20,000 nucleotides of DNA from IMG/VR virus record IMGVR_UViG_2882234885_000004. One strand, 5' to 3'. This DNA comes from an uncultured virus (IMG/VR IMGVR_UViG_2882234885_000004). Lineage: Duplodnaviria; Heunggongvirae; Uroviricota; Caudoviricetes. Positions 3,912-17,774 of the stretch are shown here, piece by piece. Both the position numbers and the translations under genes were made by a program. Numbering within the stretch: position 1 is the first letter of the stretch; each line of letters starts with the position of its first letter. The notes under the pieces are model-generated. The model made no database searches, was not told where the DNA came from, and worked only from the letters and a program-made list of their open reading frames with translations.

Positions 3912-3951
3912 GCACTAAAGCGCCAAGATGCTTAGGCTCTTAGACACTCAA
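3912..3951. repeat. array A of degenerate 8-bp tandem repeats (consensus ~GYRCYTAA)
   Basis: gcactaaa gcgccaag atgcttag gctcttag acactcaa; related arrays at 13187 and 14261. Confidence 0.6.
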
Positions 3952-3985: not shown

Positions 3986-4140
3986 TTGACCAATAAATTT
4001 TCACGTGGTATAATAAGAACCAAACCAAGGAAGTATCTGAAAAATTCTATCATTATGATTCAAGCAGTCATTCTTCGCAATTCATGCGGGAGTGGCTGCT
4101 TTTTATATATACACAAACATTTTTAAAAGGAGCGATAACT
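3986..4140 (+). promoter_or_regulatory. conserved operon leader copy 1 (sigmaA promoter + AAGGRAGTAT box + leader terminator)
   Basis: TTGACC 3986-3991, 17-bp spacer, TG-G-TATAAT 4006-4014, CAAGGAAGTAT 4026-4036, TTCAAG 4059-4064, hairpin 4062-4101, T-tract, ATATATACACAAAC, RBS AAAGGAG, ATG 4141. Confidence 0.85.
4062..4104 (+). terminator. intrinsic terminator-like hairpin within leader 1
   Basis: aagcagtcattcttcgca / tgcgggagtggctgctt stem with G-U pairs, followed by TTTTT. Confidence 0.7.
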
Positions 4141-4407
4141 ATGATAAGAGAAATCAACGATGTTTACGACCTGCGTGCCGCCTACTATGAGAAGCATCCG
4201 AACGGCCATTTCTTCGACGGAGACACACTCAAGTTTTTCGGGGAACGATTCTCCGAGATGCGCCTGCTTAAGGGAACGGTTCAAGTCACCGACTCCTTAG
4301 GGAAGGAACATACCTGCTATGTTGTCAGTTCGCTGCAGCGCATCCCAATGGTAGGGCGGAAGCGTGTCTACCACCATTTCGATGTAGAGACATTGGAGGA
4401 TATCTGA
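4141..4407 (+). CDS. small hypothetical protein (88 aa) with an 'HFFD.DT..FFG' motif reminiscent of small phage/MGE proteins
   Basis: AAAGGAG RBS before ATG 4141. The ORF-track start at 4084 lies inside the leader hairpin and is unlikely. Confidence 0.75.
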   Translation: MIREINDVYDLRAAYYEKHPNGHFFDGDTLKFFGERFSEMRLLKGTVQVTDSLGKEHTCYVVSSLQRIPMVGRKRVYHHFDVETLEDI

Positions 4408-5084
4408 TGGAAATGCAAAAAAACTTGGAGCGTATCATCGCTGAGACTTCTGCTGTGGCCATTCCAGTCACAGCACAGCCGGGGGAGAAAGAAGACTGGA
4501 TTCGTTACAGCGACTCCAATGAAGGTGAGCCGGGCTATTACCGAGATTATCTGGACCCCAAGACCGGGGCAATCCTGTATAGTTTCGGAGAGACCTGCTG
4601 TGTACACCCATGGCTTTGCGACCCTGCTGGTGTCCTTCCGTCTGAGTGCCATGGTCTGGTTCTATTGAGCAGTGAGAACTGTGACGAAAACTGCTTCACA
4701 GTGCCTCTTGCGCAGTTCGAAGCAGATTTTGGCTCGATTGCAGATGCAGTCATGCAGATGCTGGCCCAAAAACCCGAGAACTGTACGTTGCGGTTGTTTC
4801 TTAAGACGGATGACCCGGAAGATTCCTATTTAGACGCCTTGGATGTAAAGATGGACACCGAAACTGGCACTGTCAGCCTAGACAACGCTTTTATCCACGA
4901 CTATCTGGATAGTTCGCCTGCATGGCGACTCTGCGAGTCAGCCGGTATGGAAATCGAGGTGCAGGACTGCTATATGACTGGGTATTCCAGTTTTATTGCC
5001 AGCACGACAGCGGATAACCTGAAGAAATTTCTTTTGGAGCACAAGGTTATTCCTGTGTTCATCAAAAAAGCAAAGGAGAAATGA
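4407..5084 (+). CDS. hypothetical acidic protein (225 aa)
   Basis: GGAGG RBS; the start overlaps the previous stop (TGATG). Confidence 0.75.
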   Translation: MEMQKNLERIIAETSAVAIPVTAQPGEKEDWIRYSDSNEGEPGYYRDYLDPKTGAILYSFGETCCVHPWLCDPAGVLPSECHGLVLLSSENCDENCFTVPLAQFEADFGSIADAVMQMLAQKPENCTLRLFLKTDDPEDSYLDALDVKMDTETGTVSLDNAFIHDYLDSSPAWRLCESAGMEIEVQDCYMTGYSSFIASTTADNLKKFLLEHKVIPVFIKKAKEK

Positions 5085-5087
5085 ACC

Positions 5088-5537
5088 ATGGACGGAACTT
5101 TGAGTAAAATCGGCATCATCGACCTTGCTGAACGTGCTTCCCATCTTCCTGTGAATCGGATGGTTTACATCTACGGAAGGGAGGACATCAGTGCTGGGGA
5201 GACCTATGGTCTCATGGTCACGGATGCCTTCGAGACACGGATGTATCTGTTGTGTTACCTGGGCCACACCCATTGCAAGGCGGTCTCCTGCGACAGCGGC
5301 ATGGAGCACACAGAGGAGATTTCCGCTATCCGGGACATTCTGGAAAGTGCCTGGATGGAAGCCGAACTCACCGATTTCTACGTTGATGAGAGACAGTGGA
5401 GTGAAAAGCCCGCCGACATCACTCCTTGGCTGCTTGGTATCGGATGTGCCAGTAAGAAAAGCAGGGGAGGGGCAGCCACATTGGTTGCCCCTCTCTTCAA
5501 AGGAGATGAATCATTTGAAGTACTATCTGAGTTATGA
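5088..5537 (+). CDS. hypothetical protein (149 aa)
   Basis: AAGGAG RBS upstream; tightly packed in the operon. Confidence 0.7.
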   Translation: MDGTLSKIGIIDLAERASHLPVNRMVYIYGREDISAGETYGLMVTDAFETRMYLLCYLGHTHCKAVSCDSGMEHTEEISAIRDILESAWMEAELTDFYVDERQWSEKPADITPWLLGIGCASKKSRGGAATLVAPLFKGDESFEVLSEL

Positions 5538-5844
5538 CCATGTGGGGTCCCATGGGCCTGTACAGATGCAGGTCATTCCATACGACCCGTCCAACGGTGT
5601 CCGTGTGGTCGGCAAAAGTACCTTCCTCTACCACGGCAGTCTGATTGTCTCGGGCCTATTTGATACCATCAAAGAGGCCCTTGCAGACCTTGGGACGTAC
5701 TCGAAGCCCACCAGGCTGCCGGATGGAAGTTCTGTAATTCCGGCCGCAGCCAACGGCTATGAGCGGGATGACAGTCCGTTCCAGAGATGGCATCCCGGAG
5801 TGCAGGAGTTATGGCCCGGAGACCCTGGTTGGGGCCTTGTATGA
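5515..5844 (+). CDS. hypothetical protein (~109 aa)
   Basis: AAGGAG at 5500-5505 followed by in-frame TTG 5515 (MKYYLSYDHVGSHG...). This is the 3' part of track ORF 5191..5844. Confidence 0.6.
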   Translation: MKYYLSYDHVGSHGPVQMQVIPYDPSNGVRVVGKSTFLYHGSLIVSGLFDTIKEALADLGTYSKPTRLPDGSSVIPAAANGYERDDSPFQRWHPGVQELWPGDPGWGLV

Positions 5845-5858
5845 GGGGGGCGTTCAAA

Positions 5859-6152
5859 GTGGATACAATCAGTTCCTATGAGAGTCAGGTAAAAAACAGT
5901 ATCTTTCAGGTGTTCAACGGTGTCGAGACGGAAGTGGAGGCTATGGTATTTGCCAATTATGCCATGCGGCAGTTGAAAGAGTCGCAGAACCCCAAATTTT
6001 CCAGGGAGACATCCACTGCTTTTATCAATCTCTTGGCAGAGATGCTCCACCGAGAGATGCACAGCATCTATGGAAGCCAGGTCTTTGACTATTCGCTGGA
6101 TACAGCAGTGACGGACGCCAAGATTTGCCTTCAATCTGAAAGAATGGTATAA
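5859..6152 (+). CDS. hypothetical protein (~97 aa)
   Basis: GAGGGGG RBS then GTG 5859 (alternative start ATG 5841). Its stop codon TAA lies inside the -10 box of leader 2. Confidence 0.6.
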   Translation: MDTISSYESQVKNSIFQVFNGVETEVEAMVFANYAMRQLKESQNPKFSRETSTAFINLLAEMLHREMHSIYGSQVFDYSLDTAVTDAKICLQSERMV

Positions 6153-6279
6153 TTTACTCAAATTAAGGAAGTATCGAAATCACAGCCAATCTCATAACAC
6201 TTCAAGCAGCTATATCCTTTGGGGTATAGCTGCTTTTTATATATATACAAACAATCTTTACAAAAACGGAGGAATCACT
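6125..6279 (+). promoter_or_regulatory. conserved operon leader copy 2
   Basis: TTGCCT 6125-6130, 17 bp, TG-G-TATAAT 6145-6153, TAAGGAAGTAT 6164-6174, TTCAAG 6201-6206, hairpin 6204-6235, T-tract, ATATATACAAAC, RBS GGAGG, ATG 6280. Confidence 0.85.
6204..6238 (+). terminator. intrinsic terminator-like hairpin within leader 2
   Basis: aagcagctatatcc / gggtatagctgctt stem followed by TTTTT. Confidence 0.75.
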
Positions 6280-6732
6280 ATGTTCAGAGTAGACAGTTCC
6301 AGATTCAACAACTATCCTGCGTATGAGTTCAACCTGGAGCACCTCGACTTCTATCAAGTCGGGAATAAGGACCTCTACATCGTCTGCCGCGCAGGTGGAA
6401 GCACCGATGACTGTGTGCAGACAGGGAGTCAGGAGTATATCAACGGCTGGCTGTATGGTGCAGTCCAGGCCGCGTGTGGTCAGCTTCGCAAGCGCATGGA
6501 AAGCTATCCAGAGCTTCGAAATTATGACGAGGACCATCAGTATGACATGAACCGGGAACCTGATGACGTACCCGGGAACGAATTGGGCCGCTATGAAATC
6601 GTGTTCAAAGTACACGAAGACCACTACTATTGCTTTGCTGATGCAGTCAACATGGACGAAGCCCTGGGTCAGTTTTTCAAGCATCATCCCAATATTACTT
6701 ATGGGATGGTTGTTGACCACATGGAAGTATAA
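6280..6732 (+). CDS. hypothetical acidic protein (150 aa)
   Basis: GGAGG RBS; first gene after leader 2. Confidence 0.8.
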   Translation: MFRVDSSRFNNYPAYEFNLEHLDFYQVGNKDLYIVCRAGGSTDDCVQTGSQEYINGWLYGAVQAACGQLRKRMESYPELRNYDEDHQYDMNREPDDVPGNELGRYEIVFKVHEDHYYCFADAVNMDEALGQFFKHHPNITYGMVVDHMEV

Positions 6733-6758
6733 CCAGCATTTGAAAGGGGAGAAAAGTA

Positions 6759-7013
6759 TTGAAAAACACCGTTATTTCGGAAAAAGTGCTTCACGATGCA
6801 TCCGAATATATCAATGAGCATCCGGGTAACTTTTTCAAGTCTGACGCTGAGGAACTGAAGAAGTTCAACAGTGCGGAATTCAAGGAGCACGCATTGTCCG
6901 AACTTCAGGGTTCCATGGCCTATTCTGGCAATACGGTCTTTGCCGTCTACACAGCGGCAGACCTCGCCAGATATGTATGGAATATTTTCCTGAACTGGGC
7001 CTGGGGGTGGTGA
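6759..7013 (+). CDS. hypothetical protein (84 aa)
   Basis: AAAGGGGAG RBS and TTG start. Confidence 0.65.
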   Translation: MKNTVISEKVLHDASEYINEHPGNFFKSDAEELKKFNSAEFKEHALSELQGSMAYSGNTVFAVYTAADLARYVWNIFLNWAWGW

Positions 7014-7014
7014 T

Positions 7015-7410
7015 ATGGGCAACTATCCTATCTTTCCCATTGCAGAGGGCCAGAAGGTGTTCCTGGAGCCTTGCGGAAACGCAGCCAGATGGCACGGCGC
7101 AAAGGCTCCGTTGGAGGCTACCATCACCGCTATCAAGCGGAAGTACATCTATGTAGATGTTCCTGCTGTCCACGGAACCTTGAAGTTCTTCCGAGACACC
7201 TTGGAATACTGCGATAACTGCGAAACGAACTCATCCTACGTCATGTATCCCTCCAAGGAGGAGTACGAGGCGGAAATCGATACCAGAGAGAAGGAGCGTG
7301 TCGTAGTCGGTTATTTCCGTGATTACACGATGAACAAAATTCGCAGACGTGGCCTATCCCGTGAGGCCCTGAATACCATCTACCGGCTGATTCAAGAAGA
7401 GTTGAATTAA
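7015..7410 (+). CDS. hypothetical protein (131 aa), N-terminal beta-barrel-like region reminiscent of Firmicute phage proteins
   Basis: GGGGGTGGTG RBS. The 'GQKVFLEP.GNAAR...EATITAIKRKYIYV' pattern was recognised by eye. Confidence 0.7.
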   Translation: MGNYPIFPIAEGQKVFLEPCGNAARWHGAKAPLEATITAIKRKYIYVDVPAVHGTLKFFRDTLEYCDNCETNSSYVMYPSKEEYEAEIDTREKERVVVGYFRDYTMNKIRRRGLSREALNTIYRLIQEELN

Positions 7411-7435
7411 CAAATATTTACAGGGAGAAATTTAT

Positions 7436-7957
7436 ATGCTAAAGTCTTACTATGCCTTAGTTCTTTGCGATAGCCCTTGTGATGCTCAGGATACTGTGGA
7501 GCGAATGCAGGCACAGGGGCTGGATGCAACTGCTGTTGGACAGGGAGTACAGGTCAGCAGACAGTTTACCCTCCGCGAGGAGGGCCCGAAGTACTCCCCA
7601 CAGTGGGAGGTGTCCCTGATGAACGCCATTACCGACGAAATCGGTGCGGAGGAAATGATTCGGGATGCTGTAAAGGCAACTGGCAAGCCGTATGTGCTTC
7701 TGGACGAGGCTGACGCCGATTCCTCCATTTCGCTCAATGAGCGGTTGGAGGGTCTGGGAGACCATGAGGCATTTGCCAACATTGCCGCTGTGGAGCGTCT
7801 GCAGACCAAGCTGATTGACGGGCTGGACTTGGACGATAAGCCGTCGTTGCAGGAAGCCTTTCAGTACAGAGCCGCTTTGGACGTTGTACTTAGTATTGCG
7901 AAGAAGGCCCTGATTCAGAAACTGTCCAGCGAAGGAGGGCTGCAGGATGCAACCTGA
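7436..7957 (+). CDS. hypothetical acidic protein (173 aa)
   Basis: AGGGAG RBS; operon context. Confidence 0.75.
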   Translation: MLKSYYALVLCDSPCDAQDTVERMQAQGLDATAVGQGVQVSRQFTLREEGPKYSPQWEVSLMNAITDEIGAEEMIRDAVKATGKPYVLLDEADADSSISLNERLEGLGDHEAFANIAAVERLQTKLIDGLDLDDKPSLQEAFQYRAALDVVLSIAKKALIQKLSSEGGLQDAT

Positions 7958-8354
7958 CTTCATCATTCAGGAAGATGCGGCATCTGTATTGCTCAAAACC
8001 CGGTGGATGGCCTGCTACACGCTGCGAGACTCCTATCCCGGCCACGCAAGCAGATGCTTTGAAAGTCTGGACCAGAGGAGGCGAGGGCAAATCATTGCCA
8101 TCTTCTCCCGGTCTGACCATGAACCTTCCGAGCAGGATATCACGGCAGCCTATAACAAAATCCTTGCCCAAGAAATCGAGGACTCTGTGCAGACAGCCAT
8201 CGAAGAATGGGGCGGAGACCGGGCTACCGTCGAAGTAGAAATCGCAAAGACGATTCACGAACTTTTCGACGTGTTCGGGGAAAATCCCCGGCCCGTGATA
8301 CAAGAAAGCACAGAGGGAGACTCTGGAAAAGGCCAACCTGATTTGCCATTTTGA
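7947..8354 (+). CDS. hypothetical acidic protein (135 aa)
   Basis: AAGGAGG RBS; overlaps the previous stop; ends in DLPF. Confidence 0.7.
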   Translation: MQPDFIIQEDAASVLLKTRWMACYTLRDSYPGHASRCFESLDQRRRGQIIAIFSRSDHEPSEQDITAAYNKILAQEIEDSVQTAIEEWGGDRATVEVEIAKTIHELFDVFGENPRPVIQESTEGDSGKGQPDLPF

Positions 8355-8372
8355 AAAAAGGAGAAAAAATAA

Positions 8373-8828
8373 ATGCGAAAATTTTCTTTGCTCGCGGCAC
8401 TGCTGCTAATTGTCTCTGTACTCGCAGGATGCACCGACGCTGGCCCAAACAACGATACGGTTCCGTCTGACTTGACCTATACAGGCACATTCCTGGACCT
8501 GGTGGCCGAGGAAGAGCGGAACACGCCGCCGGTGGACGGGGAACTGAAAATCACCAAGGTCGATAAGGAGACTGGCTGGTGCGTTGTACCAGCCATGAGT
8601 TCTGGTGATGCTGAGTTCCTGTATCCCCGTATGGACTACGACGGGGAGCGTTACCAGCTCCGGTTTGAAAATGGCCTTCTGACCGGCTATACGACGCTCG
8701 GCACAGGCGACCTGTCCGTCACTGCGGATGATGTCTACGGTACGGACGAAGATATGCTGGCGGAATTATTCGATGAATACGTCCGCCAAGTGAACGAATT
8801 CCTTGAATCAGAAGAAGCCAAAGAGTAA
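8373..8828 (+). CDS. putative lipoprotein (151 aa)
   Basis: AAGGAG RBS; signal peptide MRKFSLLAALLLIVSV with lipobox LAGC. Confidence 0.8.
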   Translation: MRKFSLLAALLLIVSVLAGCTDAGPNNDTVPSDLTYTGTFLDLVAEEERNTPPVDGELKITKVDKETGWCVVPAMSSGDAEFLYPRMDYDGERYQLRFENGLLTGYTTLGTGDLSVTADDVYGTDEDMLAELFDEYVRQVNEFLESEEAKE

Positions 8829-8832
8829 CCAG

Positions 8833-8869
8833 AAAAACCCGGCGTTGTTCAAAACAACGTCGGGTTTTT
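8833..8869. terminator. intrinsic terminator, probably bidirectional
   Basis: aaaaacccggcgttgtt-caa-aacaacgtcgggttttt directly after the stop at 8828. Confidence 0.85.
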
Positions 8870-8896
8870 GCTTATTTATGCGAAAAATGGTACAAT
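8868..8896 (+). promoter_or_regulatory. sigmaA-type promoter lacking the conserved leader box
   Basis: TTGCTT 8868-8873, 17 bp, TG-G-TACAAT 8888-8896. Confidence 0.7.
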
Positions 8897-8928
8897 ACTT
8901 ACACAAAACACCATGAGGAGAGGATTCT

Positions 8929-9756
8929 ATGAGCAGTCTCGGCCATTCGGCCTTTCATGCCGGGATAAGCGGCCTGCGTGCCCGCTCGGCGCTGACCAGC
9001 GCATACCAGCAGGGCGACGTGAAAAAGGTAAAGCGGTTCTTCAAAACAGTGGATATTGGGGGCAAGGTTGGCGGCCTCTTTATGGCTCTCATCCTTGTGG
9101 CGCTCTCCATATCTATGTTTATGACGGCATTCAGCAGTCAGACTGATGGCAGCCGCACCGCGCCTTCTATCCCCGCAGAGGCCGGTGCATTGCCGGTCAC
9201 GGCAGTATACGACGATACAGGCTTCGTGGCGGATTATCATATTGAGCATCTGCCAGACTCCTTTGAACATATCGCGGATGACTACCACATCCAGACCGCT
9301 GTCTATTCTTCTTCCGCCCCGGCACACGACGTTTACGATTCCATTTTCACAGATGAGAATGGCGTTGTCCTCTACATTGAGGAGCACGAGGACTATGGAA
9401 CGCTGACCTATTACTGGGGCGACAATCTGGACAGTATCTTCACAGCAGAGAATATCGAGATTCTGGACTCAGCTCAGACCTACTTGGACGCCCGCACGCA
9501 TGACCGGGCAAGCAACGTGGTGTCTGACTTCAGAACAGGATTGAACCAGCTTTTTAACGGTCCTGAACACAAATCTTTATCCGCTCCGTTCGAGTTCGCC
9601 ACAGCGATTTTCTGGCTCCTGATGGCCCCAGTCTTCTATCTACTGGTCAATTTCCTAATCTGTGGTTTAGTCGGAGTGCCGTTCTCAAAGAAGAAGCGCA
9701 AAGCATTCCTAGACCGGCTGGTCTCCAGCATGGAGCAGAATCCAGCTCCTACCTAA
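8929..9756 (+). CDS. membrane protein with two TM segments flanking a TPM-like extracytoplasmic domain
   Basis: Hydrophobic stretches 'GLFMALILVALSISMFMTAF' and 'AIFWLLMAPVFYLLVNFLICGLVGV'. The region between them ('VYDDTGFV...IQTAVY...ENGVVLYI...YYWGDNLDSIF') resembles TPM-like domains. Confidence 0.7.
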   Translation: MSSLGHSAFHAGISGLRARSALTSAYQQGDVKKVKRFFKTVDIGGKVGGLFMALILVALSISMFMTAFSSQTDGSRTAPSIPAEAGALPVTAVYDDTGFVADYHIEHLPDSFEHIADDYHIQTAVYSSSAPAHDVYDSIFTDENGVVLYIEEHEDYGTLTYYWGDNLDSIFTAENIEILDSAQTYLDARTHDRASNVVSDFRTGLNQLFNGPEHKSLSAPFEFATAIFWLLMAPVFYLLVNFLICGLVGVPFSKKKRKAFLDRLVSSMEQNPAPT

Positions 9757-9757
9757 T

Positions 9758-9912
9758 TTGACCATCTACCATGCAGATGGTACAATAATAGTATCAATCA
9801 AGGGAGTATCTACTACAATCATCATATTATTTCAAGGCAGCAATCTCGTTACTGAGGTTGCTGTCTTTTTCAATATATACACAAACGATTTATCAAAGGA
9901 GGTTTTTGTACG
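9758..9912 (+). promoter_or_regulatory. conserved operon leader copy 3
   Basis: TTGACC 9758-9763, 17 bp, TG-G-TACAAT 9778-9786, CAAGGGAGTAT 9799-9809, TTCAAG 9831-9836, hairpin 9834-9867, T-tract, ATATATACACAAAC, RBS AAAGGAGG, ATG 9913. Confidence 0.85.
9834..9870 (+). terminator. intrinsic terminator-like hairpin within leader 3
   Basis: aaggcagcaatctc / gaggttgctgtctt stem followed by TTTTT. Confidence 0.75.
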
Positions 9913-11436
9913 ATGCAAAACAGTACCAGCAACGACAAGCAAATCAAAAAGAGCCGCCGGGGACTGACATTCAGCTTTCCGTCGGCAGGACGTCTTTCCG
10001 TGGGAAGTCACTATGACTATGTAATCGAGAAGGCGTCGAGAAGCATCCGCATCGTCCCTGCAGAGGCCGGACAGTACAAAATTTCTCGAAAGAAGAACGG
10101 GAAGATATGGAGTTCCCTGGTAGACCTCAGAAATAAGGAGATTTTGGATGCGGTCGCTGAGATGGAGCAGCTTTATGTTCACATCAGCGATGACCAAATC
10201 ATCGTCTCCGATGGAAAGGTACACACAGGAGCCGTATCCAAGAAGACAAGTCCCATTATCGTGTTCCAGCGTGCGGACCTGGCAAGGCTTCGCATGGCGG
10301 CTGGCCTAGATGATATTTCGGCTGCAGGGCGGATTCTGGAGTACACACAAATCAGCCTGGATGAATACCTGGCTGAGTCTCAGGACCCGCTATCGGTCTC
10401 TACTGTCCAAAAGGACATCGCCGATATCTACACGGTCGTCTCACTGTTCAGCGGCGCAGGCATCCTGGATTGGCCATTTGCACAGGACCCGAAGTTCTCT
10501 ATCCGCTACGCCATCGACTATGACGCTGCGGCCTGCGAGACATACCGGAAAAACATCGGGATGCACATTGTCCATGGGGACATCCACAAGGCTTTCACCC
10601 AAGCAGGGTATCCTCTGGATGAAACGGTCTCTGACCCAGACATCATCATCGGCGGCCCGTCCTGTAAGCCATTCTCGAATGCCAACCGCCATACCAGGCT
10701 GGACGACCACCCGGACAGCGACCTCATCGTGCAGTACATGCGCATTGTCAAAACCTTGAAACCCAAGGTATTTGCCATGGAGAATGTGCCCGAGGTGCTG
10801 ACTGCCTGCGGCGGTGCGTATTTTGACGCCATCAAGGAGACCGTCAAGGAGTGTGGATATGAGTTGGGCGCTAATATCGTCCAGGACTCCAAAGTCGGCG
10901 GTTACACGACCCGGAAGCGTGCCGTTATCCTTGGCAGCCGGATTGGAGCAGTCTCATTTCCTCCGTTGGAACTGACTTCTGGTATTCACACTGCGGGGGA
11001 GGCTCTCGGGAAGGTGACGCCGGAGTGGAGCAACTACTCTGATGTGACGCTCCCTGGAGCGGATACGAAGAAACGGATGTCCTTCGTCCCGCAGGGAGGG
11101 AACTACCAGGATATCCCGGAGGAGTATCGGACGAACAGCAAGAACCGCCACTCCTGCACCTACCGCCGCCTGGCCTGGAATGAGCCGTCTCCGACGATTG
11201 TCAACTGGCGGAAACCGCCGCTGATTCATCCTCTGGAGGACCGGACTCTGACTGTGGCCGAAGCAAAAGCTCTCCAGGGCCTGCCGGGCGATTTTCGCAT
11301 CTGCGGTACTCTTGGGCAGAAACAGCAGCAGGTAGGGAACTCCGTGCCTGTCGCACTCGGCCGGTATATCAAGAACGCGGTGTTAGCCCTGCTGCAGAAG
11401 GCGACACAGCATCAGCCGTGCGCTTCTATGGCCTAA
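9913..11436 (+). CDS. dcm: DNA (cytosine-5)-methyltransferase with ~170-aa N-terminal extension, orphan
   Basis: Motif I VVSLFSGAG, motif IV GGPSCKPFS, motif VI MENV, motif VIII TTRKRA, motifs IX-X RTLTVAEAKALQGLP...QQVGNSVP. Confidence 0.92.
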   Translation: MQNSTSNDKQIKKSRRGLTFSFPSAGRLSVGSHYDYVIEKASRSIRIVPAEAGQYKISRKKNGKIWSSLVDLRNKEILDAVAEMEQLYVHISDDQIIVSDGKVHTGAVSKKTSPIIVFQRADLARLRMAAGLDDISAAGRILEYTQISLDEYLAESQDPLSVSTVQKDIADIYTVVSLFSGAGILDWPFAQDPKFSIRYAIDYDAAACETYRKNIGMHIVHGDIHKAFTQAGYPLDETVSDPDIIIGGPSCKPFSNANRHTRLDDHPDSDLIVQYMRIVKTLKPKVFAMENVPEVLTACGGAYFDAIKETVKECGYELGANIVQDSKVGGYTTRKRAVILGSRIGAVSFPPLELTSGIHTAGEALGKVTPEWSNYSDVTLPGADTKKRMSFVPQGGNYQDIPEEYRTNSKNRHSCTYRRLAWNEPSPTIVNWRKPPLIHPLEDRTLTVAEAKALQGLPGDFRICGTLGQKQQQVGNSVPVALGRYIKNAVLALLQKATQHQPCASMA

Positions 11437-11454
11437 TACACGGAGGTGAGAGGT

Positions 11455-11811
11455 ATGGAGACAGATATTGGAGAAATCCCCATTCACTACTTTTTGTCAA
11501 CTTACGAGTTGGTCAAGAAGTCTGTTCCAGCGAGCTTCGTGCTCACGATGCTTAATGGCGGCTATCTGACCTTTCTCGGTGATGCGGAGATAGTCAGCCA
11601 GATTCTGCAGATTCCACTATACGCCCAGGAAGTGCTCAATCACAGCAAGCCTGTGCCATACTGCTTTATCCCCATGGATGGATTCGGTGAAAACCTAGAC
11701 ACCATCATGGATGTGCAGGGGAGTGGTGTTGTTCTTGCTGACAAAAATCCGGGAGTTGGAATTGAGACATTTGCAATTTTGCCCGCACAGATACAACTCT
11801 CACTATTCTGA
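11455..11811 (+). CDS. stand-alone MutS domain I-like protein
   Basis: GGAGG RBS at 11442-11446. 'YELVKKSVPASFVLTMLNGGYLTFLGDAEIVSQILQIPL...PVPYCFIP...NLDTI...G.GVVLAD' aligns by eye with MutS_I (Y..IK..HPD.ILF.R.GDFYE.F..DA...S..L.I.L...P.PM.G.P...L..L...G..VA..EQ). Confidence 0.6.
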   Translation: METDIGEIPIHYFLSTYELVKKSVPASFVLTMLNGGYLTFLGDAEIVSQILQIPLYAQEVLNHSKPVPYCFIPMDGFGENLDTIMDVQGSGVVLADKNPGVGIETFAILPAQIQLSLF

Positions 11812-11848
11812 TAAACTTATTCTGCGAGTAAAAAAGGAGACGTTTCAA

Positions 11849-12010
11849 ATGAAATTCGTTGATGCAAAAAAACTTCATGATGAAGATGAGGTAATTGTCA
11901 AAAAGACCGGCTGCGTGCTCCATGTGTTGGGGGACGTCGAGGTCGACGGGAAGGATGTGTTTATCCCGTGCGATGACGGAAAACTGTATCATCACACTGC
12001 CGTCAAATAA
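11849..12010 (+). CDS. small hypothetical protein (53 aa)
   Basis: AAAGGAG RBS and ATG 11849 (MKFVDAKKLHDEDEVIVKKTG...). This is the 3' part of track ORF 11711..12010. Confidence 0.7.
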   Translation: MKFVDAKKLHDEDEVIVKKTGCVLHVLGDVEVDGKDVFIPCDDGKLYHHTAVK

Positions 12011-12016
12011 GTCCGT

Positions 12017-12053
12017 CAGGTCCCGCACAGATATATTTTCTGTGCGGGGCCTG
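12017..12053. terminator. strong stem-loop at the end of the methyltransferase operon (no clear U-tract)
   Basis: caggtcccgcacaga-tatattt-tctgtgcggggcctg. Confidence 0.55.
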
Positions 12054-12078
12054 GTTCAAAATGTAGACTTGCCTGGGA

Positions 12079-12107
12079 TTGACCGGGACAAAAAGGTATA
12101 GTACAAT
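12079..12107 (+). promoter_or_regulatory. sigmaA-type promoter of the HipA-like gene
   Basis: TTGACC 12079-12084, 17 bp, TACAAT 12102-12107; GGGAGG RBS before ATG 12134. Confidence 0.7.
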
Positions 12108-12133
12108 AGCACAGACAGAAGGGAGGGAACCTT

Positions 12134-13183
12134 ATGCTGACTGGACTTATCATGAGCGGGGACACACCCGTCGCCAGATTTTCTGGCCGGGCAGTCACCC
12201 CCATTTTGCCGAGCAGGGCTCCCCTATGTTTCCGTAATGGGGGAGACCTGGAGGCGTGGCTTGAAATGCGGGCCATCGACCGCCATCGGACGAATAGCCG
12301 CATTTTGAAGCGCGTGCTTCGGCTCGGCGACACCTCAGACCTGAACACGGTCCTCCGTGTCCATGGCGCGACGATTACCGACAACTACTGGGTGAAGACG
12401 GATGATGAGCAAGACCTATGCTGTGAAAAGGTCCGCTTTTCCCAGAACTACTTCGCGGACGTGGCTCTGCACGGCTCCTTTGACAGCTTCTCCAAGCAGT
12501 ATACACCTGAGCAGCTCCGCACCCCAACGCCGGAACTGACCAACATCGGCAGTTACGAAAAGTGCTGGCGGCTGATAGATGGGGAGTGGGTTATGCTCAA
12601 GCAAGGCTCCATTTGTGAAATCTACTCTGAGGTGTTCACCGCCAAACTTGGAAAGCGCCTTGGCTTCCGAATGGCGGATTACCAGGTCATCGACGGCTGC
12701 GCCGCAACGACAGATTTCACGGAGGGCAGGCTCAACTTCGAACCCATGGCCTACCTCACAGGGGAAAACGAGGAGTACGCAGACAACTACCATGCATTGA
12801 AGCAGCTTCAACCCGGCCTGGAGCGGGAGTACCTGGACATCCTCTTCATGGATGCCCTGGTCTTCAACGTGGACCGGCATACGCAGAACTTCGGCATTCT
12901 GCGAAACGGGGAAACTGGAGACATCCTCTCCATGGCCCCAAACTTCGATAACAACATGGCGCTCATTTCCAGGGGCTATGCGGAGGACCCGGAAAGAACA
13001 GCAAATATGCTGGTCGACATGTTCCGCGACCTCATCTACGATGAGGGTGTCTTCTATAAGGCCCCGAATCTGGATGAGCAGACGGTGCGTGACATTGCTG
13101 TCAGCACCATGCCAGGGGCAGATGTGGACCGGGAGTATGTGGTAAAGCTGGTCATGGCCAACTATGCCAAGCTCCTCAAGTAG
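12134..13183 (+). CDS. HipA-like (HipA C-terminal domain / CtkA-like) Ser/Thr kinase
   Basis: Glycine-loop region 'TNIGSYEKCW', 'YSEV', catalytic 'DALVFNVDRHTQNFG' and Mg-binding 'MAPNFDN'. Confidence 0.85.
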   Translation: MLTGLIMSGDTPVARFSGRAVTPILPSRAPLCFRNGGDLEAWLEMRAIDRHRTNSRILKRVLRLGDTSDLNTVLRVHGATITDNYWVKTDDEQDLCCEKVRFSQNYFADVALHGSFDSFSKQYTPEQLRTPTPELTNIGSYEKCWRLIDGEWVMLKQGSICEIYSEVFTAKLGKRLGFRMADYQVIDGCAATTDFTEGRLNFEPMAYLTGENEEYADNYHALKQLQPGLEREYLDILFMDALVFNVDRHTQNFGILRNGETGDILSMAPNFDNNMALISRGYAEDPERTANMLVDMFRDLIYDEGVFYKAPNLDEQTVRDIAVSTMPGADVDREYVVKLVMANYAKLLK

Positions 13184-13186
13184 TAA

Positions 13187-13218
13187 GCGCCTAAGTGCTT
13201 AAGCGCTAGAGTGCTTCA
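13187..13218. repeat. array B of 8-bp tandem repeats
   Basis: gcgcctaa gtgcttaa gcgctaga gtgcttca. Confidence 0.7.
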
Positions 13219-13231
13219 TTTGACTCAGACA

Positions 13232-13264
13232 AACAGGGCTCACTCCTTCGGAGTGGGTCTTGTT
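13232..13264 (+). terminator. stem-loop, likely the terminator of the HipA-like gene
   Basis: aacagggctcactc-cttcg-gagtgggtcttgtt. Confidence 0.65.
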
Positions 13265-13269
13265 CTAAT

Positions 13270-13400
13270 TTGACGACAATTTTTGGGCGTGGTACAATAA
13301 TTTTATCAGACAAGGAAGTATGTTTATCACATCACGGCATAGAAAAAATCCAAGACCACAGACTCTAAAGGTGAGTTTGTGGCCTTTTTTCATATAAAAT
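13270..13400 (+). promoter_or_regulatory. conserved operon leader copy 4 (most divergent copy)
   Basis: TTGACG 13270-13275, 17 bp, TG-G-TACAAT 13290-13298, CAAGGAAGTAT 13311-13321, TCCAAG 13349-13354, hairpin 13352-13386, TTTTTT, CATATA. Confidence 0.8.
13352..13390 (+). terminator. intrinsic terminator-like hairpin within leader 4
   Basis: aagaccacagactc / gagtttgtggcctt stem followed by T6. Confidence 0.7.
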
Positions 13401-13489
13401 AGCGGCTTGCTACCGTATCGATGCAAGGACCTGTCAGGAAGACGAGTATTATTATTTTCTAAAGCAACATTGAGAATGGAGGAAATACC

Positions 13490-13798
13490 ATGAAAAACAC
13501 CACAAATAACCAAGAGAAAAAGGTTTTCAATCTGCAGGACGCCATCAATAATTTGCTGGCGGAGGACGATGCCAGTATACTGGCGGAAATCCCGGCAGTC
13601 TTTGTTGATGAGGCATGGGGCGATGACGAGTCCTATGAAAGCAAGGGCCGCGCCATGCTGGAGGCATATCTGAAGGGCGACGTTGACGGCTTCTGTATTG
13701 CCCTGACTGGATGGTCCTTTGAAAACATCCTGAAAAGAGCAGGTGCCATCGAGGACTACGACCAGACGTTCCATCAGAAGGGCAGGGGGGAGAAATGA
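13490..13798 (+). CDS. hypothetical acidic protein (102 aa)
   Basis: GGAGG RBS; first gene after leader 4. Confidence 0.75.
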   Translation: MKNTTNNQEKKVFNLQDAINNLLAEDDASILAEIPAVFVDEAWGDDESYESKGRAMLEAYLKGDVDGFCIALTGWSFENILKRAGAIEDYDQTFHQKGRGEK

Positions 13799-13986
13799 CA
13801 TCATTTTCTCGTTTCCAGGAAATCGTTCGTGCCATGGGCGGCCAATGGGCTGGCCCTCATGTGGTATTCACTCGGACACAGAGCGAATACCACGCTGCCT
13901 GTAACGGCGAATGGATACACCTGCTTGCTCCTGGCGGATACTGGTCCGCAAAAGGGGTGGACGCGGAGCGCCGGATGACTTGGTGA
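13795..13986 (+). CDS. small hypothetical protein (63 aa)
   Basis: ATGA overlap with the previous gene and a G-rich RBS. Confidence 0.6.
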   Translation: MTSFSRFQEIVRAMGGQWAGPHVVFTRTQSEYHAACNGEWIHLLAPGGYWSAKGVDAERRMTW

Positions 13987-14196
13987 TTGAAAAAGGGGAA
14001 TGGATTGCTCGTGAAAACCAACTGGAAAGAGAAGTCAAAAGCCATGGTTCAAGAGTACATCGCCGTCTGTCAGCAAGAATGCTACGACGACGCGCAGATT
14101 ATCGACGTACTGGCTGAAATCTTCACCCGGGAGGAGCTGGAATCCCTCGGCTATGGTGATTTCGTCAGAGACTACTTTAACGACGCAGAAGGCTGA
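13987..14196 (+). CDS. small acidic hypothetical protein (~61-69 aa)
   Basis: Last gene before a strong terminator. The start could instead be TTG 14005 or GTG 14011, after AAGGGG. Confidence 0.65.
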   Translation: MKKGNGLLVKTNWKEKSKAMVQEYIAVCQQECYDDAQIIDVLAEIFTREELESLGYGDFVRDYFNDAEG

Positions 14197-14204
14197 TAAA
14201 GCCT

Positions 14205-14245
14205 GCCCCGCACTTTCTCAGATAGAGAGAGTGCGGGGCTTTTTT
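14205..14245 (+). terminator. intrinsic terminator
   Basis: gccccgcactttctc-agata-gagagagtgcggggc followed by TTTTTT. Confidence 0.9.
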
Positions 14246-14260
14246 ATTTTTAAACAGCAG

Positions 14261-14300
14261 GCGCTAAAGCACCTAAGCACTTAATATCTTAGGTGCTCAC
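14261..14300. repeat. array C of 8-bp tandem repeats
   Basis: gcgctaaa gcacctaa gcacttaa tatcttag gtgctcac. Confidence 0.7.
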
Positions 14301-14338
14301 ATAGGAGCCCCCTGCACTTGTCCCCTCAAGGGCTAAAT

Positions 14339-14503
14339 TTGACTCATAAATTTCTGCATGGTAAGATATTCCCATCAAACAAGGGAGTATAAACGAGAAC
14401 AAAACCCATATTCCACGATGATTCAAGTAGCTTGTATCTGCTTTGCAGGTGCTGGCTGCTTTTTTATATATACCAAATCAAAAATTGAAGGAGGAGATGC
14501 CGT
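14339..14503 (+). promoter_or_regulatory. conserved operon leader copy 5
   Basis: TTGACT 14339-14344, 17 bp, TG-G-TAAGAT 14359-14367, CAAGGGAGTAT 14380-14390, TTCAAG 14422-14427, hairpin 14425-14461, T-tract, ATATATACCAAA, RBS AAGGAGG, ATG 14504. Confidence 0.85.
14425..14465 (+). terminator. intrinsic terminator-like hairpin within leader 5
   Basis: aagtagcttgtatctgc-ttt-gcaggtgctggctgctt followed by T6. Confidence 0.7.
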
Positions 14504-14659
14504 ATGGCTCGAAAGAAGCCTATGAAAACCGTCCCGACCCAGTTCGAGCTGATGCGGAAGATGCGCGGTTCTTGGAATGGACTGAATCCGGTAACACGGG
14601 TCATTCCAAACAAGAAGGCGTACACCCGCAAAGTCAAGCACAAGGGTCGGGACGAATGA
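14504..14659 (+). CDS. small basic protein (51 aa), ArfA/BrfA-like putative ribosome rescue factor
   Basis: Not in the ORF track. AAGGAGG RBS at 14488-14494. Translated by hand as MARKKPMKTVPTQFELMRKMRGSWNGLNPVTRVIPNKKAYTRKVKHKGRDE, whose C-terminal R..NKK.Y.RK.KH pattern resembles ArfA and BrfA. Confidence 0.65.
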   Translation: MARKKPMKTVPTQFELMRKMRGSWNGLNPVTRVIPNKKAYTRKVKHKGRDE

Positions 14660-14695
14660 CCCTGTTATACACAGACGTTTAAGGAGGAGTAACTG

Positions 14696-15892
14696 ATGGA
14701 AACCAAGATGGAAAAAAGATTTGACGATTATGTATTCTACACAGCAGATGAATCGGAGTTCCTGACGGAAATCTCCGAGATGGAGAAGAACTCTGTCTGG
14801 ATGCCAGGCATTCCGAGAACCGCATTGACGGTCCTTCCCCTGGATGCCCCCATGTTCATTCAGGAAGCCGTGGACAAGTACAACATCGACCCCGACCTGG
14901 CCCGTGATACCGTGGATGATGCCAGCGCAGGTACACATCTGATGGTCCAGTACCAGGGCCAGACATGGTGCCTGCGGGACACCGGCCGCATGACCCTCTA
15001 TACCTCCGCCGGTCAGATTGGCCCGGCGAATGGGAACATGGTCAAGGCGGAGGCATACAGCGACCTGGCCAAGAGCATGAACCTCGGCCTGAAATATGCC
15101 AAGGGTAACGCTCTCCTGCTGATTCGCTACGGCAAACTGTCTGCACTGCACAGCGGCGCATCCGACGGCTACTGTGTCATGCCCATCAGCGAACTGCTGG
15201 CCGCCACGAAGAACGCCTTAAATAAGCGCTTTGGGGTGCCCCAGTTCAAGGAGGGGTCCAACAGCCACAGCTACACCAGCGCCATTTGGGAACTGCCGGA
15301 TGTGCAGAGCGAGTTGGTGAACAAATACCAGCAGGCTCTCTCCACGGCCGTCAGCCGGAATCACAGCGCCAACTGGATGCCCATGGTTCGCTTTTCTACA
15401 AGCGATACTGCGACCAGCAGCGCTGTCCTGATGCCGAAGCTGAAGCCGAGTTCCGGCGGGTATGCCTTCTGTATCGGCAAGGGCATCCGGGTCGAGCACA
15501 TGATGAAAACCTCCGGGGCAGTCTATGGGCTGGAGAAGTTCCAGCAGGAAGCGGAAAATCTCTATGCCCTGTTTGAGGATGGCGCGGAGCTGATGAAGAA
15601 GCTGGGTGAGGTGGAAATCGCAAACCCGGTCAACTGCCTCGTCGGTATCTGTGCTGCCCTGAAGATTCCCCGTAAGTACGCTGACCCCGCTCGTGAGGAA
15701 GTGGACACGTTCACTATCAGCACGCCGCGTATGTCCGCTCTGGATATTTACCTCTCTATGGCTCAAATCCCGCAGTATGCGAAGGACAATGGTGCCAGCG
15801 AGGCAAAAATTCTGGAACTGGAGGAGACCGTGGCCAAGATTCTGAACATGGACTTCACTGACTACGATGTCGGCGGCGTCGTTTCTTGGTAA
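14696..15892 (+). CDS. conserved hypothetical protein (398 aa), possibly DUF932-like
   Basis: AAGGAGG RBS and a long ORF with strong codon bias, upstream of YqaJ. The DUF932 resemblance is a weak by-eye impression. Confidence 0.75.
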   Translation: METKMEKRFDDYVFYTADESEFLTEISEMEKNSVWMPGIPRTALTVLPLDAPMFIQEAVDKYNIDPDLARDTVDDASAGTHLMVQYQGQTWCLRDTGRMTLYTSAGQIGPANGNMVKAEAYSDLAKSMNLGLKYAKGNALLLIRYGKLSALHSGASDGYCVMPISELLAATKNALNKRFGVPQFKEGSNSHSYTSAIWELPDVQSELVNKYQQALSTAVSRNHSANWMPMVRFSTSDTATSSAVLMPKLKPSSGGYAFCIGKGIRVEHMMKTSGAVYGLEKFQQEAENLYALFEDGAELMKKLGEVEIANPVNCLVGICAALKIPRKYADPAREEVDTFTISTPRMSALDIYLSMAQIPQYAKDNGASEAKILELEETVAKILNMDFTDYDVGGVVSW

Positions 15893-15904
15893 AATCCCAT
15901 TATA

Positions 15905-15937
15905 GGGCTCCGCGACCATTCATCGGTTGCGGGGCCC
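15905..15937. other. intergenic GC-rich stem-loop without U-tract
   Basis: gggctccgcgacc-attcatc-ggttgcggggccc. Confidence 0.5.
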
Positions 15938-15962
15938 ATCTACTAAAAGAGGTGAACAAAAA

Positions 15963-16289
15963 ATGCGTATCAAAATTTTGGAGACGCAGAGTGGACGGAG
16001 ATATATCGTTTCTGAAAAGAACGAACTGACCCAGTACAGATATAACTTCTCAAAAGGCGGACTCCAGCGCCCGCAGTTCAGTGGGAACTGGAGGCTGGTT
16101 GGCTTTGCAAAAGTCCTGCCATTTGGCCATATCGGACCGGATATCCCGCCGGAAGAAGTCCTGGGTCAAGACATGAAGTTTAAGAACGGTCGAGGGGCCT
16201 ACGTGGTCCTCGACTACGACTATGGCACACATCGCATCTGGGGAGACCGGGCGGTGGCCTTTTACGAAACGGAGGTTCGGTTTCAGTGA
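15963..16289 (+). CDS. hypothetical protein (108 aa)
   Basis: AAGAGGTG RBS and ATG 15963; its stop overlaps the yqaJ start (GTGA). Confidence 0.7.
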   Translation: MRIKILETQSGRRYIVSEKNELTQYRYNFSKGGLQRPQFSGNWRLVGFAKVLPFGHIGPDIPPEEVLGQDMKFKNGRGAYVVLDYDYGTHRIWGDRAVAFYETEVRFQ

Positions 16290-17671: not shown

Positions 17672-17774
17672 TTTACCTTCCTCCCAGGAAAATCAGAAGG
17701 GAGAAGATTTATTTTGACCAAGGCAAATGACTTGATTTCCACAAGTCAGACTGCCCCGGAGGGGGTGGTTTGAC

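What the first reader, a model, noticed from the sequence alone, without database searches (positions are those of the whole stretch)
3986..14503. Five-copy dispersed 'promoter - AAGGRAGTAT box - variable linker - TTCAAG - terminator' leader: candidate new attenuation/antitermination or sRNA regulon
Seen in sequence: five operons start with the same architecture (3986-4140, 6125-6279, 9758-9912, 13270-13400, 14339-14503). Each has TTG(A/C)CN-17bp-TGGTA(T/C/A)(A/G)AT, then 10-12 nt later (C/T)AAGGRAGTAT. A G-poor linker unique to each copy follows (22, 26, 21, 27 and 31 nt), then T(T/C)CAAG running into a 14-18 bp hairpin. The stem sequences differ but pairing is kept. A U-tract follows, then ATATATAC..AAA (degenerate in copy 4), and only then the RBS. 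Two other good promoters in the window (8868, 12079) lack the box and the leader terminator, which acts as an internal control. Inference: each strong promoter by default makes a terminated RNA of about 80-95 nt. The downstream genes (unknown proteins, MTase, ArfA-like, YqaJ, RecD2) would be expressed only when a factor recognising the box, TTCAAG or the tail permits read-through, for example just after transfer into a new host. Alternatively the short RNAs themselves are functional, with a constant scaffold and a variable 21-31 nt segment. Analogous logic is known from lambda N/nut antitermination, pLS20 establishment-gene leaders and conAn antitermination, and T4-type PeSL elements, but I do not recognise this motif as any of them.
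Basis: partly seen in the sequence, partly recalled or inferred. Interest (0 to 1): 0.88.

Follow-up and report, generated by a model that had tools for sequence, protein, structure and literature searches.

The report
Repeated stop-signal leaders in giant ICE
A 252-kb mobile DNA element in a spore-forming bacterium places the same short 'start, box, stop-hairpin' control sequence before about 30 of its gene groups, probably to switch them on together by letting transcription read through, a layout I could not match to a described system.

Summary
The five copies are real, at the stated coordinates. They belong to a set of 31 (24 canonical, 7 variants), all inside a ~252-kb conjugative element that splits spoIVA. 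The promoter+box pattern gives 29 hits here and 0-1 in each of 400 family genomes. The hairpin behaves as a + strand RNA terminator: 225 of 230 stem positions pair, 34 G-U against 1 A-C. Box, stem and tail change less between strains than linker or spacer. I found no cis antiterminator, leader peptide, guide-like linker or Rfam match. Leaders head DNA-metabolism and small unknown-gene operons; 45 boxless promoters head transfer and maintenance genes. Related elements keep the layout with their own box. Best reading: a dispersed attenuator regulon set by a trans-acting factor (0.55). The factor and the direction of control are not identified; a core triple-S1 protein is one candidate. Termination itself is not shown. 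Not found in Rfam or ten literature searches.

The parts
3986..4014 (+). copy 1 promoter: TTGACC, 17 bp, TG-N-TATAAT; predicted +1 near 4021
   Evidence: +1 inferred from spacing
4027..4036 (+). copy 1 box AAGGAAGTAT
4062..4117 (+). copy 1 terminator hairpin (4062-4101), U-tract and ATATATACAC tail; first gene starts 4141
6125..6251 (+). copy 2: promoter 6125-6153, box 6165-6174, hairpin 6204-6235, tail 6236-6251; first gene starts 6280
9758..9883 (+). copy 3: promoter 9758-9786, box 9800-9809 (AAGGGAGTAT), hairpin 9834-9867, tail 9868-9883; first gene starts 9913
13270..13402 (+). copy 4: promoter 13270-13298, box 13312-13321, weakest hairpin 13352-13386, degenerate tail; first gene starts 13490
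14339..14477 (+). copy 5: promoter 14339-14367, box 14381-14390, hairpin 14425-14461, tail 14462-14477; first gene starts 14504
4141..6152 (+). operon behind copy 1: small ORFs without a Pfam match over cut-off
6280..8869 (+). operon behind copy 2: unknown ORFs, one ProQ-C-like (7015-7410); ends at terminator 8833-8869
9913..12010 (+). operon behind copy 3: C5 DNA methylase (9913-11436), MutS-I-like ORF, small ORF
13490..14239 (+). operon behind copy 4: three small unknown ORFs; ends at terminator 14205-14239
14504..20000 (+). operon behind copy 5: 51-aa ORF, conserved 398-aa protein (14696-15892, used as family marker), YqaJ (16286-17671), RecD2 (17775-20000)
3918..3941 (.). 8-bp-period AAGCAC(C/T)T-type repeats upstream of copy 1; also 13185-13216 and 14259-14282; element-wide, also upstream of parA, so not leader-specific
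   Evidence: role as centromere/RHH site is inference
8868..8896 (+). boxless control promoter (extended -10), no leader terminator
12079..12107 (+). boxless control promoter in front of the HipA-like gene 12134-13183

Best explanation
These are 5' leaders of a dispersed attenuator regulon of a giant integrative conjugative element. SHOWN in sequence: a sigma-A-type promoter, a box at about +7 to +17, an unstructured A/C/U-rich linker, a 12-18-bp RNA hairpin with a U-tract interrupted after about 5 U, a conserved tail, then the RBS 33-47 nt after the stem in 21 of 23 copies. INFERRED: each promoter makes an 80-93-nt RNA that usually stops at the hairpin, and one trans-acting factor sets read-through at all leaders at once, so that DNA-synthesis, recombination, methylase and many small (probably anti-defence) genes come on together when the element becomes active or enters a new cell. 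The factor most likely binds the single-stranded box RNA and hinders folding of the next hairpin (antitermination, about 60:40 over a factor that enforces termination in the donor and is missing in a fresh recipient). The tail may be a second, DNA-level contact. The best candidate seen is the element's own three-S1-domain protein (C20:368600); this link rests on co-occurrence only.
For: 31 copies, all inside the element, 30 on one strand; 29 pattern hits against 0-1 in each of 400 family genomes. Stem 225 of 230 paired against 60% for shuffled partners (max 75% in 2000), 34 G-U against 1 A-C. Tail follows 21 of 28 leader terminators and 0 of 64 other terminators of the element, a test that does not select on the box. 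In 30 orthologue pairs, changes per site: box 0.027, stem 0.02, tail 0.033, -35/-10 0.01-0.02, against spacer 0.118, linker 0.077, loop 0.075 (pairs not independent). Leader plus 5' arm folds at only -0.8 to -10.8 kcal/mol, less than shuffles in 20 of 23. Leaders head a functionally distinct gene set; 45 boxless promoters head T4SS, parA, cas, rep, sigma and recombinase genes. The layout persists in relatives with an element-specific box: 17 model hits in a 136-kb relative whose promoters have lost the -35 consensus, and 21 leaders in 8 distant records, 20 with a variable small hairpin between two AGT(A/T)TC-type repeats. Two variants carry overlapping antiterminator/terminator stems. U-tracts have 5-7 T in 8 with distal breaks, a feature of NusA/NusG-dependent terminators (PMC8060035, passages). 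AimR is a precedent for an antiterminator binding DNA at a fixed distance from a terminator (PMC10769878, passages). The S1-like gene is in 8 of 8 genomes that carry the family marker and its model resembles ribosomal bS1 (pLDDT 83; E 3e-10, TM 0.33).
Against: No factor identified: no NusG, CsrA or ANTAR gene over cut-off in the element. No 3' ends were observed. Contigs of RNA library X1 bridge the U-tracts of copies 1, 2, 3 and 5; they may be DNA and cannot give levels, but they do not show strong termination. The S1-like gene sits in the conjugation cluster and is also on two plasmid records that lack this leader. The model from this element does not find the distant-clade leaders at E<=1, so common descent is unproven. 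One of 7 other marker-positive genomes had no detectable leader (L257). Box invariance within the element is partly by construction, since copies were picked by the box. No double-sided compensatory change was seen between strains (8 one-sided kept, 4 broken).
Confidence: 0.55

Rival explanations
1. The box (and tail) is a DNA operator for an element repressor, as with Reg576 on p576 or MrpR/SPBRE on SP-beta. The hairpin is only a fixed, leaky damper.
For: Box sits at a nearly fixed distance from the -10 (10-15 nt, mostly 12-13). The element encodes HTH, LexA-like and RHH-like proteins. Dispersed operators before establishment or lytic genes are known (PMC6294495; PMC10516654; passages).
Against: The box is single and not palindromic. 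A repressor does not explain a strong terminator 24-36 nt behind every box, the variable hairpin between the repeats in the distant clade, or box/anti-box pairing in the SSB-like gene leader of two relatives.
Confidence: 0.15
2. Read-through is the normal state. The hairpin and tail act after transcription, as a processing or stability element and an AU-rich translation enhancer bound by the S1-like protein; the box is a start-codon-free SD that shields the 5' end.
For: The tail lies past the release point and just before the RBS. The box pairs with the host anti-SD at -6.2 to -7.9 kcal/mol. X1 contigs bridge four terminators. The S1-like protein resembles bS1.
Against: A U-tract directly follows the stem in 23 of 23 copies. 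Boxes of relatives (AAAGAACTAT, AGTATCAAG) are not SD-like. No copy has the stronger AAGGAGGT.
Confidence: 0.15
3. The short RNAs are the product: about 30 sRNAs with a constant scaffold that titrate a protein, or with variable seeds that pair with mRNAs.
For: Narrow length range, 80-93 nt, constant 5' box, single-stranded middle. A sponge role is compatible with the best explanation.
Against: Longest exact linker matches are at chance level in the element (11.2 against 11.05 +/- 0.2) and host (12.6 against 12.4 +/- 0.2) (G-U-aware target search not run). Linkers drift like spacers and can be almost absent (C20:289429, L175, L209). 21 of 23 canonical copies have a gene 33-47 nt behind the stem.
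Confidence: 0.1
4. The cassettes are PeSL-like recombination linkers or relics of duplication with no shared regulation.
For: Gene content between leaders varies among strains. PeSLs are repeated promoter/stem-loop cassettes in variable regions (PMC2839356, passages).
Against: Spacer, linker and upper stem differ between copies, leaving only 10-16-nt identities. 5 of 32 synteny break ends lie near leaders, against about 2.6 expected for intergenic breaks. Purifying pattern on box, stem and tail.
Confidence: 0.05

Closest known systems
ANTAR (EutV/NasR/AmiR) antitermination regulons (PMC3369931, passages)
   Same: Several leaders share a short motif upstream of an intrinsic terminator and respond to one trans factor; the box could present a hexaloop with A1 and G4.
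   Different: No 3-bp stem in any of 23 copies, no second hairpin 5-12 nt away overlapping the terminator, no ANTAR gene in the element.
Arbitrium AimR antitermination (PMC10769878, passages)
   Same: Mobile-element factor reads through a terminator; its site lies at a fixed distance from the terminator (downstream of it in SP-beta), like the tail here.
   Different: One tested terminator per phage, not about 30 promoter-proximal leaders; no AimR-like gene found among Pfam hits.
p576 Reg576 establishment regulon / SP-beta SPBRE-MrpR (passages)
   Same: One short conserved motif at many dispersed promoters of a Firmicute mobile element, controlling establishment or lytic-type genes.
   Different: Those are DNA operators (dual TTATCCC; 15-bp SPBRE). 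The passages read describe no terminator behind each promoter.
pLS20 EGeRS1 (PMC8708921, abstract and passages)
   Same: Five conserved elements before establishment operons; they block read-through.
   Different: 420-750 bp, GC-rich, highly structured, without a constitutive promoter; here about 130 bp, AU-rich, with a strong promoter.
conAn, canT and cATT zipper attenuator (PMC8191782, PMC11658703, PMC13401043; abstracts only)
   Same: Termination control of genes on Gram-positive conjugative elements.
   Different: Single, large cis-acting RNAs at the head of the conjugation operon; here many short leaders without a cis antiterminator, mostly before non-transfer genes.
T4-type PeSL cassettes (PMC2839356 passages; PMC4122927 first third)
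   Same: Repeated promoter + stem-loop + SD cassettes before variable ORFans.
   Different: The PeSL stem-loop stops transcription from upstream and often lies within the promoter; here it lies 45-55 nt after +1 and would stop the cassette's own transcript.
lambda N/nut and T-box leaders (recalled, no call)
   Same: Short RNA signal between promoter and terminator; T-boxes are dispersed multi-copy attenuators.
   Different: No boxA/boxB or T-box match in Rfam scans; leader too short and unstructured for a T-box.

Membership tests
Any Rfam 15 family | CM score at gathering threshold | tested here: not met
   Window: 6 hits at E<=5, all far below gathering. Seven 20-kb tiles of the element (140 of 252 kb): only tRNAs and one HEARO.
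ANTAR substrate | hexaloop with A1 and G4 | tested here: inconclusive
   AAGGRA fits and a closing Y-G pair is possible in 23 of 23, but this may be plain sequence conservation.
ANTAR substrate | two short hairpins, the second overlapping the terminator, linker 5-12 nt | tested here: not met
   0 of 23 have a 3-bp stem on the box; 1 of 23 has any such hairpins in the leader; box-to-stem distance 24-36 nt.
ANTAR substrate | cognate ANTAR protein | tested here: inconclusive
   One host ANTAR gene outside the element; none over cut-off inside.
NusG-paralogue antitermination (LoaP, RfaH, UpxY type) | NusG paralogue on the element | tested here: not met
   Single NusG match in the genome, on contig C19.
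CsrA/Rsm target leaders | CsrA in host or element | tested here: not met
   0 matches at E<=1 in a 99% complete genome; the likeness of the box to the CsrA site is recalled.
pLS20 EGeRS1 | 420-750 bp, GC-rich, no constitutive promoter | tested here: not met
   About 130 bp, AU-rich, consensus promoter against passages.
Reg576-type operator regulon (EGeRS2) | dual direct-repeat operator bound by an RHH repressor | not testable with these tools
   The box is single here; separate 8-bp repeats and an RHH-like gene exist; binding cannot be tested.
conAn / canT / cATT | long structured cis RNA or alternative antiterminator fold in the leader | tested here: not met
   No stable alternative fold in 23 canonical leaders. 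Two variants (C20:334564, 336279) do have overlapping stems. ConAn1 homologues were not searched.
PeSL | stem-loop terminates upstream transcription | tested here: not met
   Hairpin lies downstream of +1 in all copies.
PeSL | indels break at the cassettes | tested here: inconclusive
   5 of 32 break ends near leaders against about 2.6 expected; one strain pair only.
Leader-peptide attenuator | short ORF behind an SD in the leader | tested here: not met
   Start codon behind the box in 1 of 23, 3.1 expected.
Intrinsic terminator | RNA 3' ends 7-9 nt after the stem in vivo | not testable with these tools
   Only assembled contigs were available.

The most novel reading that the evidence does not exclude
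A family-wide master switch of gut Clostridia ICEs: an element-encoded, ribosomal-S1-like protein (or another unrecognised fold) recognises an element-specific RNA box and opens 3 to 30 promoter-proximal terminators at once, while the terminated leader RNAs soak up the factor and set a threshold, so that only some cells turn the element on.
Probability: 0.15. Interest if true: 0.88.

Novelty: new variant of a known kind. Interest (0 to 1): 0.7.

Why it matters
Establishment and early genes of Gram-positive conjugative elements are so far explained, in the papers I saw, by repressor titration (Reg576) or promoter-less structured elements (EGeRS1). A regulon of about 30 short attenuators would be another route, and each leader marks an operon of mostly unknown genes that is a ready list of candidate anti-defence and host-takeover functions. 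The marker protein's cluster has members on hundreds of contigs, and the related loci whose record names give a source are human gut assemblies, so the element is not a rarity. Element-specific boxes on a shared scaffold make the cognate factor directly testable by swapping, and could give orthogonal read-through switches for gut Clostridia. The element also interrupts spoIVA, so its activity is likely tied to sporulation.

Tried and rejected
One search used a mis-spaced pattern and gave 0 hits even in the own genome; redone. Viral scan: 17 of 34 hits in one relative; the rest lacked the hairpin. Row C20:239095 (box-like, no hairpin) was dropped; statistics use 23 canonical copies and omit C20:300348, found later. 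Two orthologue pairs without a box match (L174) were dropped. RNAalifold on the MAFFT alignment misregistered the stem (7 pairs), so model R1 leans on sequence; I counted pairs on a stem-anchored set instead. Rejected: cis antiterminator, leader peptide, guide linkers, CsrA, NusG paralogue, ANTAR (see tests). Tail pairing with the -10 region (ssDNA promoter idea): no matching change in the G402 clade. Anti-box RNA in trans: the only perfect anti-box in the element is the - strand leader copy itself. The 224-aa gene behind a variant leader looks like an SSB (acidic DEELPF tail; Atlas 0.82, lead only); its anti-box is significant in G402 and L175 but not here. The basic 89-aa ORF C20:294931 matched only unnamed clusters. 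CRISPR spacers: only 3 extracted, no long match. RNA runs: contigs only; X4 is one flat 46-kb contig and looks like DNA; X1 contigs begin 12-37 nt after predicted +1 at four leaders, X3 begins elsewhere, so this is a weak hint from one study. No plasmid DNA match to copy 1. The Alkaliphilus plasmid stretch showed no such leader. Earlier-findings look-ups returned nothing.


Full report
Observation. All five copies are present as described (coordinates). The box occurs five times on the + strand against 0.057 per shuffled window, and each leader ends in a hairpin that folds better than shuffles (z -2.1 to -5.5). Corrections: the AAG of TTCAAG is the foot of the stem, the stem base is itself conserved, and the 51-aa ORF has no ArfA support.

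Setting. The window is C20:450962-470961 of its genome. It lies in a stretch of lower GC from about 237.3 to 489.5 kb that splits spoIVA: the N-terminal part ends at the left border and the C-terminal part resumes at the right, with a 21-bp inverted repeat (19 identical) at the ends and a large serine recombinase at the right end. The element carries VirB2-, VirB4-, VirB6- and VirD4-like genes, Rep3, ParA, Cas5/Cas8c/Cas7, anaerobic RNR, ligase, topoisomerase, RecG/RecJ/RecD2, ERF, two alpha-CTD-like proteins, an ECF sigma (296 of 330 predicted ORFs scanned, plus 28 window ORFs and the boundary-spanning ones), a RpoD-like sigma and 24 tRNA calls. It is an integrative conjugative element by gene content; mobility was not shown.

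Full set. There are 31 copies, 24 with the tail and 7 variants, between C20:255478 and 478026, 30 on the + strand. The promoter+box pattern gives 29 hits in this genome, one hit in each of 5 and none in 395 of 400 family genomes. Among 267 strong host promoters one has a box-like word. Leaders precede small unknown ORFs and the RNR, ERF/primase, AAA/VWA, UvrD, NADAR, dUTPase, methylase, YqaJ/RecD2 and SSB-like operons. A second class of 45 boxless promoters, with a conserved AT-rich spacer, precedes parA, cas, rep, the sigma, surface proteins, several T4SS genes and the recombinase. This is a much stronger internal control than the two promoters in the window.

Anatomy (23 canonical copies). 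Box: A91 A100 G100 G100 A83 A100 G100 T100 A100 T100 percent (partly by selection). Box end to stem 24-36 nt; predicted RNA 80-93 nt. Stem: 225 of 230 basal positions pair, against 60% when partners are shuffled between copies; 34 G-U and 1 A-C pair show it works as RNA of this strand. U-tract: 5-7 T in 8, broken distally, as in NusA/NusG-dependent terminators of B. subtilis (PMC8060035, passages). The tail follows 21 of 28 leader terminators and none of 64 other terminators in the element. Across 30 orthologue pairs, promoter hexamers, box, stem and first 12 tail bases change at 0.00-0.03 per site, spacer, linker, loop and distal tail at 0.075-0.118. No alternative fold competes with the terminator; leaders are less structured than their shuffles in 20 of 23. 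There is no leader peptide and linkers match nothing beyond chance.

Relatives. A near-identical 147-kb record has 18 pattern hits. A 136-kb record at 68% marker identity keeps box, TTCAG, terminator and TTTATATA tail (17 model hits) but has different promoters, with a weak -35 and upstream GGTTCT repeats; there the box sits in a possible 4-bp 5' hairpin in 17 of 18. Other relatives change the box: AAAGAACTAT, AAAGAAGTAT, ATAGAAGAC (no linker), ATGGAAGT. The marker gene is in 8 of 401 order-level genomes; 6 of the 7 others have a promoter-leader-terminator directly before it. This distant clade has 21 leaders in 8 records, with two AGT(A/T)TC-type repeats around a small hairpin of variable sequence (20 of 21 at p<0.05), before LPD11, PcfK/PcfJ, ligase, SSB and YqaJ/RecD2 operons. 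The model built here does not detect them, so they share position and layout, with descent unproven. Two more distant plasmid records lack this leader and show a different repeated one.

Factor. No NusG paralogue, CsrA or ANTAR gene lies in the element. One nucleic-acid-binding candidate is core to the family: a protein with three S1/OB folds in the conjugation cluster, present in 8 of 8 marker-positive genomes, whose model is closest to ribosomal bS1. Its presence on records without this leader weakens the link. It is a lead, not a result.

Expression. Nine runs on record as RNA hold part of the stretch, all as contigs; four were laid. In X1, contigs begin 12-37 nt after the predicted +1 of copies 1, 2, 3 and 5 and run through the U-tracts; X3 begins elsewhere and X4 looks like DNA. 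This allows read-through and does not measure termination.

Mechanism. Shown: layout, confinement, RNA-level hairpin, selective constraint, absence of a cis switch, two promoter classes, element-specific boxes. Inferred: default termination and control by one trans factor (0.55), more likely an antiterminator than a termination-enforcing factor lost on transfer. Two variants with overlapping antiterminator/terminator stems would give the opposite output if the factor simply blocks the first hairpin behind the box; this is speculation. Rivals: operator plus damper (0.15), post-transcriptional element (0.15), functional sRNAs (0.10), recombination cassette (0.05).

Comparison and novelty. It works most like ANTAR or AimR antitermination applied to an establishment-type regulon, but fails the ANTAR, NusG-paralogue, EGeRS1, conAn/cATT and PeSL tests that could be run. 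No Rfam family matches. Ten full-text searches returned no description of this leader or of this spoIVA-inserted element; the library lacks most subscription papers, I opened no supplements, bioRxiv supplements are closed, and motif catalogues outside Rfam were not checked, so a listing there is possible. Papers seen: passages of PMC6294495, PMC8708921, PMC2839356, PMC8060035, PMC3369931, PMC10516654, PMC10769878; first third of PMC4122927; abstracts and outlines of PMC11658703, PMC13401043, PMC8191782. Lambda nut, T-box, STAB-SD and the CsrA site are recalled.

Verdict. Real, larger than reported, apparently undescribed; a new variant of termination control on conjugative elements, with factor and direction open. 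Interest 0.70.

Noticed in passing
G000:C20:237290-489500 (L001-L012 and window): A ~252-kb conjugative element splits spoIVA, with terminal inverted repeats and a serine recombinase; it would have to excise for spore coat assembly, like skin or SP-beta (inference).
   Followed up: partly
L281:1060-2031 (C20:415060): Element-encoded RpoD-like sigma factor, 38% identical in G402; may serve the boxless promoter class with its conserved AT-rich spacer.
   Followed up: partly
window 3918-3941, 13185-13216, 14259-14282; C20:247748, 240353, 265064 and others: 8-bp-period AAGCAC(C/T)T repeat arrays across the element, including upstream of parA, next to a 158-aa RHH-like gene; possible centromere and global repressor sites. 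G402 has related GGTTCT repeats upstream of its leaders.
   Followed up: partly
L001:13314-19430 (C20:249314-255430): Type I-C-like Cas5/Cas8c/Cas7 with a degenerate array and no Cas3, Cas1 or Cas2 among the Pfam hits; a leader starts right after the last repeat.
   Followed up: partly
C20:334332(-), 334564(+), 336279(+) (L165, L166): Divergent pair of boxed promoters; two copies carry overlapping antiterminator and terminator stems, kept in G401.
   Followed up: partly
L012:6540-7436 (C20:476579): Variant leader with a long terminator before an SSB-like gene; box pairs with an anti-box in G402 and L175.
   Followed up: partly
W01:54287; W02:20547 and 98512(-) (L318, L324, L327): A different repeated promoter-leader (TGTAATTG(A/T)T(T/C)TTTGTGC...) in two plasmid records, in W02 upstream of the YqaJ/RecD2 operon.
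   Followed up: no
L004:4472-4840 and L010:17621-18124: Two stand-alone RNA polymerase alpha-CTD-like genes, one behind a leader and one behind a boxless promoter.
   Followed up: no
L010:8644-10236; L003:9073-10182; L004:10115-11047: HEARO RNA with an RRXRR-HNH (IscB-like) gene, and two TnpB-like genes.
   Followed up: no
L012:14870-14953: A tRNA-Val called with anticodon AAC, unusual in bacteria.
   Followed up: no
L003:14753-15907: SLH-domain surface protein with a weak ATLF-type metallopeptidase domain match (E 4e-7).
   Followed up: no
window 12134-13183: HipA-like kinase gene on its own boxless promoter with no obvious antitoxin gene beside it.
   Followed up: no
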